Below, in pieces: positions 1 through 48,303 of a DNA stretch of 64,000 bases; position 1 is the first letter of the stretch, and each line of letters begins with the position of its first letter. The stretch comes from Eledone cirrhosa (Eukaryota), in NCBI GenBank assembly GCA_964016885.1, contig OZ024759.1, positions 8,184,001-8,248,000 on the forward strand. Direction: 5' to 3'. Under the pieces are notes generated by a model that did no database searches, was not told the DNA's origin, and was given only the letters and a program-made list of their open reading frames with translations. Both the position numbers and the translations under genes were made by a program.

Positions 1-510
1 GCTACACCAAGAGGATTGCCAAGATGAAGGAGATAAGCTACTGGGAGAGGCTAAAGGAACTGAACCTCTACTCCTTGGAACGAAGACTGGAGAGATACGC
101 AGTGATCTACATGTGGAAAATCCTGGAGGGACTAGCACCAAACTTTGGCATTGGGAGCTGGACCAACCCCCAAACAGGACGTCACTATGTGGTGTCTTCC
201 ACATCTAGAATAAGGAGCAGGTATTGCAATAGCCTGGGGTTCAAAGGCACTCAACTCTTCAACAAGCTGCCGAGGGATCTGAGAGATCTGCATGGTGTGG
301 AGGTGGATGTTTTCAAGAAACATCTCGACACCTTGTTATCCAGGATCCCAGATGAGCCCACAGCAAGGCACAAAGGTAACCGAAGAGCAGCAGCAACAAA
401 CTCCCTCTTGCACCAGTGGCCACCGAACACAGGCTGGGGATACAACATGTAGCAACAAGGGCGGTGCCCCAGAATGGCCTCAGCCGGGTGGGTGGAACAG
501 GTAAAGAGTA
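1..510 (+). mobile_element. 3' end of a CR1/L2-group LINE (ORF2 C-terminus), cut by the window edge
   Basis: ORF 24..452 reads Y.ERL..L.LYSLERR.ERY..IY.WKI...G..LFN.LP..LR...FKK.LD..L..IPDEP, a typical CR1/L2-group ORF2 tail. A related fragment lies near 37955-38050. Confidence 0.75.
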
Positions 511-654
511 ATACATATATATACATATATGTATATATATATTTGTATATATATATATGTATATATACATACATATATGTATATATACATACATATATGT
601 ATATATATATGTATTTATATATATATAATGTGTGTATATATACATACATATATG

Positions 655-1866
655 TAAGGTATAGAAAAATTCTTAATAGGAACAATATAAAAATATCCTT
701 CTCTACTACTCCTAACCTAGCAGACATCATAGGAATAACGAACCACAGTAAGATCACCAAGACACAGCACCTCGACACAGACGCACCTACACCTGACAAT
801 AACTATATCAGCCTTAACAACTCCCTAGCAGCATCCAATAGTGTTGGCAACGGCATCCGCAGACGCAACCAGCATAACCGCGAAATGACTGGGGAACATG
901 CAGAACATGACGTGCGGAATAACAATCGCACCATCCCGCGTGCTGTAGGTTGTAATTGTGCTAACGACAGCTGCGGTAGCGTAGGTAACAACGTAGGCAG
1001 CAACAATGATAGCCTTACCGTGAGAAATAGACGGAACCGCGACAGAAATTGCAACTGCCGCGACAGAGGACGCTGCCCCCTTAGAGGATACTGCTTGACT
1101 GATAGGGTTATATATAGATGCACTATTACTAGCCACAATAGCGTTAAACATTATATAGGGGCTACCTCCGGCCCGTTCAAAATTAGGTTTCGAACACATC
1201 TCCACTCTTTCACAAATAGAAAACTAAGGCACCCCACTTCGCTCGCGGACTACATCACATCACTAAAGGACTTAAACATCAGCTTCTCCACGCACTGGGA
1301 GATTATCGGCAGGGCTGCACCGTACAACTTCAAGAGGAAATGCGATCTTTGCCTCATGGAGCTCTACCACATCATAACTGCCCCCCACGAGCTCATTAAC
1401 AGCAGAGCTGAAACAGCGATAAGTTGTACACATCGCTTAAAAATATCCTTCTTCAGATGGGTTAAGGATGAGGAGTGAAACCGTACACCGGATCTCCCTG
1501 CAACAAGTCTTAACACCCCGGCGGGCAGGTGCTGCAAAATAACACCCAGGAAACTATCCTTGCATACCAGACCCAGCCTCAGACAAACAGATGCGGCAAA
1601 AAAAAAAAAAAAAAATTGGCCGGGAAAAACTGCCCTAACACCGGCCAGAGTTACCTCCCTTGACCTGCTGCAAAATCAAAACAAGATATTTTTGCGAGCA
1701 ATGAACCTTGATGTGGATTTAACCCCAAAAACTCTTTCCGAGCAATATAAGGAACACTTGTGATTATTTATGCCCTTGAGAAGCCCAACTGGGCGAAACG
1801 TACGTAGGTGCTGTTTTAAATAAACATGTTTTAACGGTCTATTCTCCGATTTTTTACTTTCCCATA
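655..1866 (+). mobile_element. 5'-truncated Penelope-like element: C-terminal GIY-YIG endonuclease plus 3' pseudo-LTR, inserted in (TA)n
   Basis: The frame is open from about 655 to 1478 and reads [57 protein letters not shown]. The N-terminal YIYI part of the called ORF is microsatellite. (TA)n flanks both sides and a hammerhead-like motif lies at 1771-1810. Confidence 0.85.
1771..1810 (+). ncRNA. Minimal type I hammerhead-like motif (U3-A8 core variant) in the Penelope pLTR
   Basis: tgccc TTGAGAA gccc-aact-gggc GAAA cgtacg (palindromic stem III) TA ggtg. Stem I is weak. Confidence 0.6.
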
Positions 1867-1888
1867 TGTATTTATATATATATATATG

Positions 1889-1965
<77 letters not shown>

Positions 1966-1967
<2 letters not shown>

Positions 1968-2943
1968 CGAAGGAAATGTGGTAAGGAACCAGGTGGACCA
2001 TAACGCACCAAAGTACTTAATACTTAGAGTAGTAGAGTGGGTAATAGGAACGAGTAGGACCCCGACGGCTGAGCTCAAGCCGTTTCGACGGCTAATTCTG
2101 GACTAAATGAACATTTTTATCCTGGTATATGAATAGCCGAGCTTCTCAGGGGGTAATTCCATATATGGTAAAAGTGATTGTCACAAGGATTGGTCAAAAG
2201 TTTGTTGTTGAGACACGTAATTCTATCATGGCAATTTGTGGAAGGAAGGTGTAGCTGAACCTGCCAGTAGAAGAAAGAGGGAGGCGGGGTGGAGGAAACC
2301 CAGTTGTGCATTGATAGTGCCAACAACAGCAGGGCAGGAGGTCAAGGAAGTATACTAGGGAGGGGGAGGAAGTCGAAACAATAAGTAAAACAATATGGGG
2401 TAAATATATAGAGGAATACGGAGAATGTTAAAAAAACAATTAAATATAGAAAAAAACAATTTCTGGTTACTATAACCTAAGGACAGCTATCACTCTCTAG
2501 CTGTCCTTAGGTTATAGTAACCAGAAATTGTTTTTTTCTATATTTAATTGTTTTTTTAACATTCTCCGTATTCCTCTATATATTTACCCCATATTGTTTT
2601 ACTTATTGTTTCGACTTCCTACCGCTCCCCCTCCCTAGTATAGGTGCTTGACCTCCTGCCCTGCTGTAGTTGGCACTATCAACGCACGACTGGGTTTCCT
2701 CCACCCCCCTCCCTCTTTCTTCTACTGGCAGGTTCAGCTACCCCTTCCTTCCACAAATTGCCATGATAGAATTACATGTCTCAACAACAAACTTTTGACC
2801 AATCCTTGTGACAATCACTTTTACCATATATGGAATTACCCCCTGAGAAGCTCGGCTATTCATATACCAGGATAAAAATGTTCATTTAGTCCAGAATTAG
2901 CCGTCGAAACGGCTTGAACTCAGCCGTCGGGGTCCTACTCGTT

Positions 2944-2948
<5 letters not shown>
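1966..2948. mobile_element. Fold-back element family A: 78-nt tail plus about 450-bp near-perfect inverted repeat, flanked by (TA)n
   Basis: Arm 2044-2489 is the reverse complement of arm 2498-2948, with an 8-nt loop (tcactctc). Tail is 1966-2043. Shorter copies lie at 8436-8544 and 48117-48303. Confidence 0.9.
2838..2933 (+). ncRNA. Type I hammerhead-like motif, atypical core CUGAGAA (mirror copy at 2059-2154 on minus)
   Basis: acccc CTGAGAA g..cggcta[long loop]tagccgtc GAAA cggct-tgaactc-agccg TC ggggt. Confidence 0.7.
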
Positions 2949-3002
<54 letters not shown>

Positions 3003-3207
3003 CATACATATATATATTTCAAGGCTACCATAATATAAATATGGTACCATAAATATAGTTTCCATTTATTTAATATCATTGAATATTTACTCGAGAAAGC
3101 TGTTGAGTGCTCTAAATCAGTTATAAACATTTATATTTGTTGGACTTCCAACAAATTAAATACCCCTTCTACTTATACATATATATATATGTATTTATAT
3201 ATATATA

Positions 3208-8435: not shown

Positions 8436-8544
8436 AACGAAGGAAATGTGGTAAGGAACCAGGTGGACCATAACGCACCAAAGTACTCAATACTTAGGGT
8501 AGTAGAGTGGGTAATAGGAATGAGTAGGACCTACTCATTCCTAT
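8436..8544. mobile_element. Minimal copy of fold-back family A (tail plus 15-bp hairpin)
   Basis: Same tail as 1966-2043, then ataggaatgagtagg-a-cctactcattcctat, then (TA)n. Confidence 0.85.
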
Positions 8545-10639: not shown

Positions 10640-10869
10640 ACAGTCGATCGACTTTTTTTCAAATCGGACCGAGGAAACGATGTTTCCATTGATCTTTCTA
10701 ATTGCTAATACTATCTATCGGTCACAACTCTAGGTAGAAGGAGCAACGTGAAATAAAGTGTCTTGCTCAAGGACATAACGCATCGCCTGGTCTGGGATTC
10801 GAACTCACAACCTCACAATTGCGAATCCAATTCTCTAACCACTCAGCCACGCGCCTCTCTCTCTCTCTC

Positions 10870-10923
<54 letters not shown>

Positions 10924-11137
10924 GCGTGTGGCTGAGTGGTTAGAGAATTGGATTCGCAATCGTAAGGTTGTGAGTTCGATTCCTGGACCAGGTGATGCGT
11001 TATGTCCTTGAGCAAGACACTTTATTTCACGTTGCTCCTTCTACCTGGAGTTGCGACCGATAGAGAGTACTAGCAATTGGAAAGACCAACGGAAACATTG
11101 TTCCCTCGGTCCGATTTGACGAAAGTCGATCGTTCCC
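10640..11137. mobile_element. Two head-to-head copies of CORE-like SINE family S3 (10640-10855 minus, 10924-11137 plus)
   Basis: A box tggctgagtgg, B box gagttcgattcc, the CORE-like block and a distinct tail gaaagtcgatcg. The copies are separated by (CT)n(TA)n. Confidence 0.85.
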
Positions 11138-39020: not shown

Positions 39021-39559
39021 TGAAATTTGAATGACAAACACTTCTCGTAAACCTTGACGTGAATATTTGGAAAATATTTTTTTTTTATTATGGAAACCTA
39101 AAGGTAGAAAGTGATTTTGTTATAAATAAAGTCCCAAAAGGGCCAGTTTAAAGCCCTTACTTAGTAAACTTAACATTTAAATTAAACCAAACTGTGTTAG
39201 GGAAACGTCAAATATTTTACGCAGTGTTTCTCAAGATGAAGGCGTGGGACTTTGGAGTTGAGGGACTTAATACATTACTGTTTTATATACTAACTTGGGT
39301 CAGCTCGTTGTTGTGGTGGTGGTGGTGGTGGGGGGGGGGGTCGAAGTGTGAAGAGGGGTGGAGCAAAAGAAAACGGGTTGAAAAATACTGGTTTTATAGA
39401 AAACCACCATCAAATTATTGGCTGGAATAGAACGAGAAATGAAGAAAGCAAAACAAAACAAGAAGGAAAAAATAAAAATAAACGAAAGAAACAAATAAAG
39501 AAGAAAGAAAGAAAGGTTAAAGTAAAATAAATAAATAAATATTGAAATAGTTCACTTAC

Positions 39560-39998
39560 CTATGGCGGCTGCAGCAAGCAATGAAACCGGAAGAGATGGT
39601 TTTGGGCAATCCGGAAATATGGGTTCGATTATATAATAAGAAAATGTAAGGGCCACGATTGCTTGGGAACATGGTCGAACAATCATACATTCAACCCATA
39701 GTCTTAGGAAAGCAGGAAATGCCCCAAAAGCTTCGTAAATGTAAGCATAGTCGGCCCCGGAGCGCATGATAGAGGTCCCCAATTCGGCATAGCAATAGGC
39801 CCCGATCATTGAAAATATCCCACTTAAAATCCAGACGATCAATGAAAGAGACACACTTCCGGAATTGACGAGAACACCCTTGGGACTGACAAATATACCG
39901 GAGCCAATTATACAACCTACAATGACTGTTACGCCATTGAGAAGCGACAACTTTGGTTGTAATTCAATCACTTCCTTCTCATTTTTCGAACTTGACAT
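39560..39998 (-). CDS. First coding exon of an L-type amino acid transporter light chain (SLC7A5/SLC7A8 LAT family, LAT2-like)
   Basis: Reads LSLLNGVTVIVGCIIGSGIFVSPKGV, GAYCYAELGT, SGADYAYI.EAFG..PAFLRLW and P.FPDC (the Cys that links to the heavy chain). It ends at a G|GTAAGT donor (phase 1) at 39560/39559. The paralogue cannot be assigned from one exon. Confidence 0.95.
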
Positions 39999-40021
39999 CT
40001 TTCTTTGAAATTTGATCCCTC

Positions 40022-40201
40022 GACTTCTTCAGCCTCGTCTCCTGTCTCTCGTCTTCTTCAGTCTCGTCTCCTGTCTCTCGTCTTCTTCAGTCTCGTCTCC
40101 TGTCTCTCGTCTTCTTCAGCCTCGTCTCCTGTCTCTCGTCTTCTTCAGTCTCGTCTCCTATCTCTCGTCTTCTTCAGTCTCGTCTCCTGTCTCTCGTCTT
40201 C
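40022..40201. repeat. 29-bp tandem repeat (about 6 copies) immediately upstream of the SLC7 start codon
   Basis: Unit cttcttcagtctcgtctcctgtctctcgt. Confidence 0.9.
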
Positions 40202-46825: not shown

Positions 46826-46882
<57 letters not shown>

Positions 46883-46885
<3 letters not shown>

Positions 46886-47420
46886 GACGTAAAATAAGAA
46901 AATTATAAAAATTAACTTACTAAAATTTCACTCCAACTAATTAGTTTCTGAAAGGGAATAAACATGGTTTCCGAATGGAGCAACATGGAGAAAAATCCTT
47001 TCGTCATCAGGGAGGTCTATTCTCAGCTAAGTTTCCAGGCAATGCGTGGACACAGGGAACTTATACAAAAATAATTCAGTGGATGGAAAAAAGCAAGCGA
47101 GGACTAAATTCCAGGACATTGAAAAAATCACTGCCTACTTGGTCTGTGGCAAATTCAAAAGAATCAATCACGTGACATCGAGGTCAATCAGTGAGGAGTG
47201 GGGTGCTAATAAGACAGTAGCCTGACTATTACTATGAACCACAGTAGTAGTTTTGGCAAATTTTTGCTCAACAAAATAATTTGGAGATAATTATAAAGAA
47301 TTAGTATATCTACCAACATATATAAGTTCCCTGTGTCCACGCATTGCCTGGGAACTTAGCTGAGAATAGACCTCCCTGATGACGAAAGGATTCTCCATGT
47401 TGTTATTTCTGTTTACCTTT
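46883..47420. mobile_element. Fold-back element in (TA)n with a hammerhead
   Basis: Arm 46981-47065 pairs with arm 47321-47402. Confidence 0.8.
46931..47014 (-). ncRNA. Type I hammerhead motif with an extended stem II
   Basis: Minus strand reads ctcc CTGATGA cgaaagg..cctttca GAAA ctaattag (palindrome) TT ggag. Confidence 0.7.
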
Positions 47421-47423
47421 TAC

Positions 47424-47492
<69 letters not shown>

Positions 47493-47947
47493 AAAGAAAT
47501 AAGATTTCGCTTCAAGCATAGCTTTATACAAAAATGTATAGAAATTTCGTATTTCTAAAGAAACACGGTTTTAGTATGCAAACACCGGGAACTAACGCCC
47601 TCCGCTGGTGTCCACCAGAAGCAAGGGGGACAACCGTCTATGCATGTCAGGCTTGACTGGCCTTCGTCAGGACGGTCCCTCCCACCGCTTGCTACTGCTG
47701 GACTTATGCAGCTTCATATGCAAATGAGATTAATCACCTCATTTACTCAGAGGAGAAAACTATATATTCTCGACTGTTTTCAAGTCCAGTAGTAGCAAGC
47801 GTGGGAGGAACCGTCCTGACGAAGGCCAGTCAAGCCTGAAATGCATAGACGCTTGTCCCCCTTGCTTCTGCTGGACACCACCAGAGGCCGTTAGCCCCCG
47901 GTGTTTGCTTCCTAAAACCGTGTTTCTTTAGAAATACAAAATTTATA
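47493..47947. mobile_element. Fold-back element in (TA)n: tail plus about 165-bp inverted arms
   Basis: Arm about 47541-47705 pairs with arm 47782-47947. Tail is 47493-47540. Confidence 0.85.
47812..47851 (+). ncRNA. Minimal type I hammerhead ribozyme motif (mirror at 47633-47676 has GAAA changed to GACA)
   Basis: cgtc CTGACGA aggc-cagtcaa-gcct GAAA tgca (palindrome) TA gacg. Confidence 0.85.
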
Positions 47948-48116
47948 TATATATATATTTATATATTTATATATAAACCCGTAGAGCAAATATTTATTAA
48001 AATAACAGATTAAAGTTTAAGCAAAGAATCGCTGCTTTCGCCTTTAACGGGATCTTCTAAAGTTTCAAAAGACCCCGTTAAGGGTTCTTATAATATATAT
48101 ATATATATATATATAT

Positions 48117-48303
48117 AACGAAGGAAATGTGGTAAGGAACCAGGTGGACCATAACGCACCAAAGTACTCAATACTTAGGGTAGTAGAGTGGGTAATAGGA
48201 ACGAGTAAGACCCCGACAGCTGAGCTCAAGCCGTTTCGCTCAGTCCAGAATTAGCCGTCGAAACGGCTTGAGCTCAGCCGTCGGGGTCTTACTTGTTCCT
48301 ATA
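48117..48303. mobile_element. Intermediate-length copy of fold-back family A
   Basis: Same tail and same right end as 1966-2948, with arms of about 44 bp. Confidence 0.85.

What the first reader, a model, noticed from the sequence alone, without database searches (positions are those of the whole stretch)
1966..2948. Family A allelic series: fixed ends with a variable turn-around point, hinting at the insertion mechanism
Seen: three copies (1966-2948, 8436-8544, 48117-48303) share the left tail (aacgaaggaaatgtgg..) and the right end (..ttcct|atat), but their arms are about 450, 15 and 44 bp. Copy-specific variants appear in both arms of the same copy (aatgag/ctcatt at 8519-8539; gtaaga/tcttac in the 48k copy). 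Both junctions have TA microhomology to the target. Inference: reverse transcription stops at a random point, the cDNA folds back and primes its own copy, and synthesis ends at a fixed TAT that anneals to the other (TA)n end.
Basis: partly seen in the sequence, partly recalled or inferred. Interest (0 to 1): 0.8.

Follow-up and report, generated by a model that had tools for sequence, protein, structure and literature searches.

The report
Penelope retrotransposon stumps with inverted ends
These three hairpin-shaped repeats in TA microsatellites match the known stump form of Penelope-like jumping genes, and sequencing reads suggest they likely arise when the element's RNA is copied from both broken DNA ends at two fixed start points, rather than by one copy folding back on itself.

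Summary
The three copies are real. They share a 78-nt tail and a fixed inverted end (2044-equivalent) and sit in (TA)n. Each has the published Penelope-like element (PLE) insertion form: inverted 5'-truncated copy plus one-sided tail. A hammerhead-like motif lies in copy 1. Raw reads confirm the fixed end (3421 of 21,781 and 2905 of 21,735 reads), so the architecture is not an assembly artefact; the three individual junctions were not shown in reads. Copy 3 is asymmetric. All 15 joints shown (of 124) have an inverted arm reaching 30-113 nt further than the tail-side arm, and 10 have no palindrome at all, which simple fold-back cannot make. The turn-around is not random: contigs and reads point to a dominant limit near 2104-2108, at the arm's only initiator-like motif. 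Best reading: two-ended (twin) priming at two fixed reverse-transcription starts, with joining in the middle. Self-priming and two start sites are already in print. This scan found the same architecture many times on other DNA. Ordinary element, modest mechanistic value.

The parts
1966..2043 (-). Copy 1 tail, 78 nt, 3' end of the element's sense strand, joined to (TA)n 1893-1966
2044..2489 (-). Copy 1 tail-side arm (pLTR plus upstream non-coding sequence); 2044 is the fixed internal end
   Evidence: no long ORF
2490..2497 (.). Copy 1 loop, 8 nt
2498..2948 (+). Copy 1 inverted arm, ends at the fixed site, then (TA)n to 2997
2059..2154 (-). Type I hammerhead-like motif (core starts 2149, predicted cut 2064/2063; C3 opposite A8 in this copy, U3 in 18-61% of other copies' reads or depth)
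   Evidence: row 2149; no Rfam hammerhead hit
2838..2933 (+). Same hammerhead-like motif in the inverted arm
2105..2110 (-). Only TCAKTY initiator-like motif on the sense strand of 1966-2497; its +1 A is 2108, the dominant 5' limit of copies in reads (inferred transcription start)
8436..8544 (-). Copy 2: tail 8436-8513, arms 8514-8528 and 8530-8544; turns at 2058-2061 equivalent, 2-5 nt from the predicted ribozyme cut
48117..48302 (-). Copy 3: tail 48117-48194, left arm 48195-48238 (to 2087 equivalent), 3 extra letters 48239-48241, inverted arm 48242-48302 (from 2104 equivalent)

Best explanation
These are 5'-truncated insertions of what is most likely a Penelope-like retroelement (PLE) family, likely made by two-ended (twin) priming rather than by fold-back. 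Inferred steps: the element's endonuclease cuts both strands in a (TA)n tract. One target end primes reverse transcription at the tail end (1966). The other end primes at a fixed internal site (2044), helped by a 3-nt TAT match. Both cDNAs run towards the RNA's 5' end, stop, and are joined head to head, often through 1-5 nt of microhomology. The usual RNA would start at about 2108 from the repeat's own promoter, which sets the common stop. If the tail-side cDNA stops early, a non-palindromic inversion results. If both reach the same RNA end, a near-symmetric hairpin with shared variants results. Copy 1 would come from a longer read-through RNA; copy 2 perhaps from an RNA cut by the ribozyme. 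Shown: the anatomy, the fixed end in reads, the asymmetric joints, the 5' limit. Not shown: any enzyme, RNA or parent ORF. PLE identity about 0.9; this mechanism about 0.6.
For: Architecture equals the published PLE form: inverted 5'-truncated copy, one-sided tail, (TA)n targets (PMC8557442, passages; PMC3846280, passages). Hammerhead-like motif upstream of the fixed end: a strict scan hit only the two arms of copy 1, against 5 hits in 50 shuffled windows; the U3-A8 core is a described PLE variant (PMC4209133, part 1 of 4). In vitro a PLE protein cuts and extends both target strands and starts at two RNA sites whose interval is the tail (PMC11167929, parts 1-2 of 4). Reads: 9 of the 11 opposite-strand joints shown (15 of 20 joints shown) join 2005-2050 to 2094-2104, and 5 of these 9 occur both in X1 contigs and in X18/X19 raw reads of another study. 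In one search, 15 of 15 joints shown (of 124) have the inverted arm reaching 30-113 nt further, 10 with no overlap, 13 starting at 2098-2106. 5' limit: summed contig depth falls 33-fold (X1) and 10-fold (X4) between 2074-2091 and 2110-2127. 84 and 81 contigs have loose ends before the 2104-equivalent whose consensus ends in ATTT, preceded by non-element letters. One X4 contig turns back at 2108. The only TCAKTY on the arm has +1 at 2108 (0.0016 per base in the window); PLE repeats carry TATA- and Inr-like motifs (passages).
Against: No parent ORF, no RNA and no whole genome were available. The joints shown are the best-supported few. No joint with 20 nt or more of overlap appears in either table, so hairpin forms are probably hidden by library or assembly bias, and their share is unknown; the window's own three copies are all hairpins. 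The reference caps the inverted-arm start at 2104-equivalent. Microhomology at the joints fits later deletion from a full hairpin equally well. Copies 1 and 2 are symmetric to within 8 and 1 nt away from the hot spot, which needs one shared RNA end or true fold-back. Two joints do not fit (1991-2042 and 1966-2044). The initiator match was noticed after the fact, and 2108 is also near the apex of predicted helix II, so a polymerase stall would look the same. Rfam gave no hammerhead hit, and the hammerhead fold (-23.7) is less stable than the free fold (-26.9 kcal/mol). The tail is 78 nt, not 30-40.
Confidence: 0.6

Rival explanations
1. Fold-back self-priming: one cDNA from the tail end snaps back, copies itself, and is resolved at 2044 by an endonuclease nick or annealing. 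Asymmetric copies would be later deletions from full hairpins.
For: Copies 1 and 2 are symmetric to 8 and 1 nt and share rare variants between arms. The first 6 letters across copy 3's junction can pair with its own left arm (6-bp stem, 12-nt loop), which may be a short snap-back. Self-priming was proposed for palindromic PLE junctions, there on an antisense RNA (PMC3846280, passage). Symmetric joints are hidden in the read tables.
Against: Copy 3 and 15 of 15 joints shown need an extra one-sided deletion. A 1-nt loop with a 2-bp stem (copy 2) is a poor primer (own knowledge). Longer TA runs on the arm are passed over. A PLE protein is known to start at the internal site in vitro.
Confidence: 0.25
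2. A pre-existing hairpin locus is transcribed whole and copied; reverse transcriptase jumps across the RNA stem at variable points, so both fixed ends are inherited from the master copy.
For: Explains near-symmetry at any position and small asymmetries. Copy 1's arms differ by a cluster at 2347-2366, and at 2347 both alleles are common in other copies, as if the arms had different histories.
Against: Does not explain why synthesis ends exactly at the same base of the inverted arm in diverged subfamilies (loose ends before 2044 and 2056), nor junctions inside the tail, up to 56 nt outside any stem.
Confidence: 0.1
3. Two different RNA molecules prime the two ends (dual priming).
For: The PLE protein is predicted to be a dimer; dual priming is described as indistinguishable from twin priming in L1 (PMC2837659, passages); the 2347 cluster in copy 1.
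Against: Near-private letters shared by both arms of copy 1 and copy 2, and near-equal arm lengths far from the hot spot, favour one template.
Confidence: 0.1
4. Assembly or library chimeras.
For: The three junctions themselves were not shown in reads; no long reads were available.
Against: Fixed TA junction at 2044 in thousands of raw reads; the same inversion joints in contigs and raw reads of two studies; arms of copies 1 and 3 differ from each other, partly by CpG-type changes.
Confidence: 0.03

Closest known systems
EN+ Penelope-like element insertions with inverted pLTR and one-sided tail (Craig et al. 2021, PMC8557442; Adineta Penelope, PMC3846280)
   Same: Inverted 5'-truncated copy joined head to head, tail on one side only, palindrome at the junction, microsatellite target, hammerhead in the repeat.
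   Different: Tail 78 nt against 30-40; no ORF in these copies; target duplication unreadable in (TA)n.
Poseidon_Ac internal initiation (Frangieh et al. 2024, PMC11167929)
   Same: Two fixed ends downstream of the hammerhead whose interval is the tail; AT-rich target.
   Different: There the two starts are adjacent and shown in vitro; here they are 78 nt apart and inferred. In the parts read (1-2 of 4) the paper does not explain the inverted join.
L1 twin priming and dual priming (as described in PMC2837659)
   Same: Second target end primes inside the RNA, giving an inverted part and an internal deletion.
   Different: Here the internal site is fixed, there is no poly(A), and the two parts often overlap to form a hairpin.
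Hydra clade of PLEs (PMC8557442, section 11)
   Same: (TA)n insertion and hammerhead; the neighbouring ORF at 453-1478 has the CxCX5C, CxxC and CxH motifs of this clade.
   Different: Family A has no protein to place, and its sequence does not match the neighbour's 3' region above shuffles (27 of 200 score as well).

Membership tests
EN+ Penelope-like element | ORF with telomerase-like RT and GIY-YIG endonuclease | not testable with these tools
   The copies hold no long ORF; no genome held; the tail pattern found nothing in metagenome contigs.
EN+ Penelope-like element | Inverted 5'-truncated copy joined head to head | tested here: met
   joints.
EN+ Penelope-like element | Tail extension on one side only | tested here: met
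   78 nt in 3 of 3 copies; longer than the 30-40 bp quoted in PMC8557442.
EN+ Penelope-like element | Hammerhead motif in the terminal repeat | tested here: met
   Motif scan with shuffles; C3/U3-A8 core; not recognised by Rfam; activity untested.
EN+ Penelope-like element | Target-site duplication | tested here: inconclusive
   Both flanks are (TA)n.
Hydra clade PLE | CxCX5C linker, no CCHH, RWK and DKT motifs | not testable with these tools
   No family A protein; the linker motif is seen only in the neighbouring ORF.
Hydra clade PLE | Insertion into (TA)n | tested here: met
   3 of 3 copies; reads. Shared with Naiad and Neptune, so not diagnostic.
Hydra clade PLE | Canonical hammerhead | tested here: inconclusive
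   Core is C3 or U3 with A8, long helix II.
Animal non-LTR retrozyme | Tandem array of hammerhead-bearing monomers | tested here: not met
   Three dispersed single copies, no tandem units in the window; definition from the abstract.
MITE or foldback DNA transposon | Inverted repeats at both termini (recalled) | tested here: not met
   The 78-nt tail lies outside the inverted repeat, and many read joints have no inverted repeat.

The most novel reading that the evidence does not exclude
Family A stumps are a genome-wide record of an obligatory twin-priming step in PLE integration: both cut ends of (TA)n start cDNA at two protein-defined sites on one short RNA that begins at an initiator inside the hammerhead (2108). 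The junction distribution would then map the RNA's start site, its ribozyme cut and the collision of the two polymerases in vivo, and would replace the self-priming account of PLE inverted repeats.
Probability: 0.4. Interest if true: 0.55.

Novelty: new member of a known kind. Interest (0 to 1): 0.32.

Why it matters
How PLEs make their inverted repeats and tails is an open question (stated in PMC8557442 and PMC11167929). A high-copy family with two fixed ends and a mappable middle junction lets fold-back and two-ended priming be told apart by counting. The element type itself is known, and this scan has already noted the same form in this and other genomes, so the added value is the read-level asymmetry and the possible start-site link.

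Tried and rejected
Whole-genome copy collection: no genome held. Tail pattern in metagenome contigs: 0 matches. Rfam on 1900-3000 at E up to 10 gave 41 matches, all below gathering score and none a hammerhead; the top ones are microRNA models drawn by the palindrome. Rfam on the whole window at gathering gave 0. Unconstrained folds of the hammerhead region and of family A tails are no more stable than shuffles (z -1.05, 0.53, -0.26, 0.05). No RNA holder listed; this is no evidence either way. Read pile-ups ending at 2097, 2155/2158, 2233 and 2458 coincide with AATT sites and were rejected as restriction-digest ends (inferred from the RAD library); for the same reason RAD depth beyond 2097 was not used. 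The pile-up at 2108 (630 and 744 molecules) also needs an AATT, so it shows only that the sequence changes there. Summed contig depth was not used as a copy number. The cluster of tail-side ends at 2045-2050 would fit a collision with the second primer, but is confounded by a subfamily that diverges at 2051, so it is not counted. Neighbouring ORF: no Pfam family of use, no homologue among 49 longer candidates, Atlas hits unnamed apart from one cluster with GIY-YIG in 11% of members. It is not shown to be the parent of family A. ADAR-type editing, reported by other notes in this genome, was not tested formally; the few copy-1 variants do not look one-directional. Literature searches for Penelope with twin priming (2 listings), with template switch and hairpin (2 listings), with palindrome (1 listing) and with head-to-head and transcription start (1 listing) listed no paper whose title or abstract start proposes twin priming for PLE inversions; those papers were not opened, the library lacks most subscription papers, and no supplements were read.

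Full report
Observation. The window is animal-type DNA, rich in (TA)n and LINE-like fragments; no genome is held. Self-BLAST finds the family at three places only. Each copy reads: (TA)n, a 78-nt tail, an arm starting at 2044-equivalent, a junction, an inverted arm ending at the same base, (TA)n. Copy 1 has arms 2044-2489 and 2498-2948 with an 8-nt loop, 10 substitutions and 2 indels, the inner 123 bp perfect. Copy 2 has 15-bp arms and a 1-nt loop. Copy 3 is asymmetric: the tail-side arm stops at 2087-equivalent, while the inverted arm starts at 2104-equivalent after 3 extra letters.

Is it real? Reads of four runs were laid on 1966-2497. (TA)n lies directly before 2044 in 3421 of 21,781 and 2905 of 21,735 raw reads, in 77 X1 contigs and in 3 X4 contigs of another organism label. 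So the fixed inverted end is a property of the family. The three junctions themselves were not shown. Copy 3's right flank matches X2 and X3 contigs exactly, and one X3 contig crosses the junction position but with 7 differences in 78 letters, so it is not proof.

Shared variants. Copy 1's arms both carry G at 2217 and 2284, where nearly all other reads have A (257 of 263 and 182 of 191 in X18). Copy 2's shared T is under 5% in reads (absent from table 3) but lies at a CpG. Copy 3's shared A at 2057 is common (46% of X1 depth, 31% of X18 reads), and its arms differ at 2 of 44 sites. So a single source for both arms is supported for two copies of three. That fits fold-back and one-RNA twin priming alike.

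What it is. A type I hammerhead-like motif lies on the sense strand upstream of the fixed end (2149 to 2059). A strict scan hits only copy 1's two arms, against 5 hits in 50 shuffled windows. The core is C3 with A8 in copy 1, and U3 in 18-61% of other copies' reads or depth; U3-A8 is a described PLE variant (PMC4209133, part 1 of 4 read). Against this, Rfam lists no hammerhead and the hammerhead fold is 3.2 kcal/mol above the free fold. An inverted 5'-truncated copy, a one-sided tail and (TA)n targets are the published PLE insertion form (PMC8557442, passages and section 11; PMC3846280, abstract and passages). The copies hold no long ORF, so membership rests on anatomy. Other hairpins with hammerhead cores in the window show the same plan in other families.

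The junction. In one search, 15 of 20 joints are shown; 11 change strand; 9 of these join 2005-2050 to 2094-2104, and 5 of the 9 occur both in X1 contigs and in raw reads of another study. Two (1991-2042, 1966-2044) do not fit the pattern. In one search, with copy 3 as reference, 15 of 124 joints are shown. In all 15 the inverted arm reaches 30-113 nt further than the tail-side arm; in 10 the tail-side part ends inside the tail, so there is no palindrome. A cDNA that stopped in the tail never held the sequence of the inverted arm, so it cannot have copied it from itself. Yet these copies carry the same inverted segment. Limits: the rows shown are the best supported; the reference caps the inverted start at 2104; no joint with 20 nt or more of overlap appears, so hairpin forms are probably hidden and their share is unknown; later deletion from a full hairpin is not excluded.

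The stop is not random. Thirteen of the 15 inverted starts fall at 2098-2106; letters between are TT or TTT in 4 of 12 rows shown (of 107), which extends the arm to 2106-2107. 84 and 81 contigs have loose ends there whose consensus ends in ATTT after non-element letters (agreement 0.52 and 0.47). Summed contig depth falls 33-fold in X1 and 10-fold in X4 across about 2110 (the tool warns this is no copy number). The only TCAKTY initiator-like motif on the 532-nt sense arm has its +1 A at 2108 (motif consensus recalled). PLE repeats are reported to carry TATA- and Inr-like motifs and an internal promoter (passages). I infer an RNA start at 2108. The idea came partly from note e1-9820663; the match is after the fact, no RNA was available, and a stall at the apex of helix II would look the same.

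The fixed end. The 3-nt TAT match exists at the right end only. Longer TA runs lie further up the arm, so annealing alone does not select 2044. In vitro, an anole PLE protein cuts and extends both strands of AT-rich DNA and starts at two RNA sites that bound the tail (PMC11167929, parts 1-2 of 4 read). That gives a direct reading of both fixed ends as start points.

Mechanism. Most likely (0.6): both cut ends prime on the RNA, at 1966 and at 2044; the two cDNAs stop, usually at the RNA's 5' end, and are joined. It works like L1 twin priming (PMC2837659, passages) but with a fixed internal site. All enzymatic steps are inferred. Fold-back (0.25) stays possible for near-symmetric copies such as copy 1, and a short snap-back may explain copy 3's extra letters. 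Self-priming for PLE palindromes is already in print. Copying of a master hairpin (0.1), dual priming (0.1) and artefact (0.03) are weaker; these are not all exclusive.

Novelty. The element is a new member of a known kind. Earlier notes of this scan describe the same form and similar two-ended models in this and other genomes; they are unchecked and are not counted as support. My searches listed no paper that by title or abstract start proposes twin priming for PLE inversions, but the library is partial, those listings were not opened, and no supplements were read; the supplements of PMC11167929 and PMC8557442 may bear on this and on clade assignment. Interest 0.32.

Noticed in passing
window 453-1872 (+): 3' part of a PLE directly left of copy 1: GIY-YIG-type reading frame to 1478 with CxCX5C, CxxC and CxH motifs as described for the Hydra clade, a TA/TG insertion near 511-657, and a compact U3-A8 hammerhead core at 1776. 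Copy 1 sits in the (TA)n at its end.
   Followed up: partly
window 29374-29837: Second hairpin family in the opposite orientation: arms of about 188 bp at 98% identity, 1-nt loop, canonical CTGATGA hammerhead in both arms, 89-nt tail on the right, (TA)n on both sides.
   Followed up: partly
window 3018-3180 (+): Diverged fragment related to the right arm and tail of the 29.4-kb family, directly right of copy 1; its tail folds better than 199 of 200 shuffles.
   Followed up: partly
window 8483-8490, 48164-48171, 29767-29774, 3103-3110: A TTGAGTRC motif lies about 19-24 nt into the tails of family A and the 29.4-kb family and in the 3.1-kb fragment; 9 matches in the window against 3.8 expected. 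In family A it sits in a small predicted hairpin.
   Followed up: partly
window 16940-17440: Inverted-repeat element after (TA)n with a 147-nt spacer and a U3-A8 hammerhead-like motif at 17015-17096; the left arm has about 33 extra bases near its outer end.
   Followed up: no
window 46882-47430 and 47534-47952: Two more inverted-repeat elements between TA tracts, with hammerhead cores at 47010 and 47376 (minimal form) and at 47816.
   Followed up: no
reads on window 1966-2060: At least one sister subfamily with different letters at 1966-1977 and 2051-2056 but the same two ends; a joint of tail end to fixed end (1966-2044) in 27 raw reads.
   Followed up: no
window 2347-2366 versus 2621-2646: Three substitutions in 4 nt and a 6-nt indel between copy 1's arms, with both alleles at 2347 common in other copies; possible conversion or second template.
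   Followed up: partly
window 22219-24437: About 2.2 kb of nearly pure, interrupted TA repeat with higher-order units.
   Followed up: no
window 39552-40028 (-): Reading frame that looks like the first coding exon of an SLC7-type amino acid transporter (recalled resemblance, not searched).
   Followed up: no
window 10645-11132: Two copies of another repeat (about 91% alike) facing each other across a (TC)n(TA)n tract; an inverted pair of a different kind.
   Followed up: no
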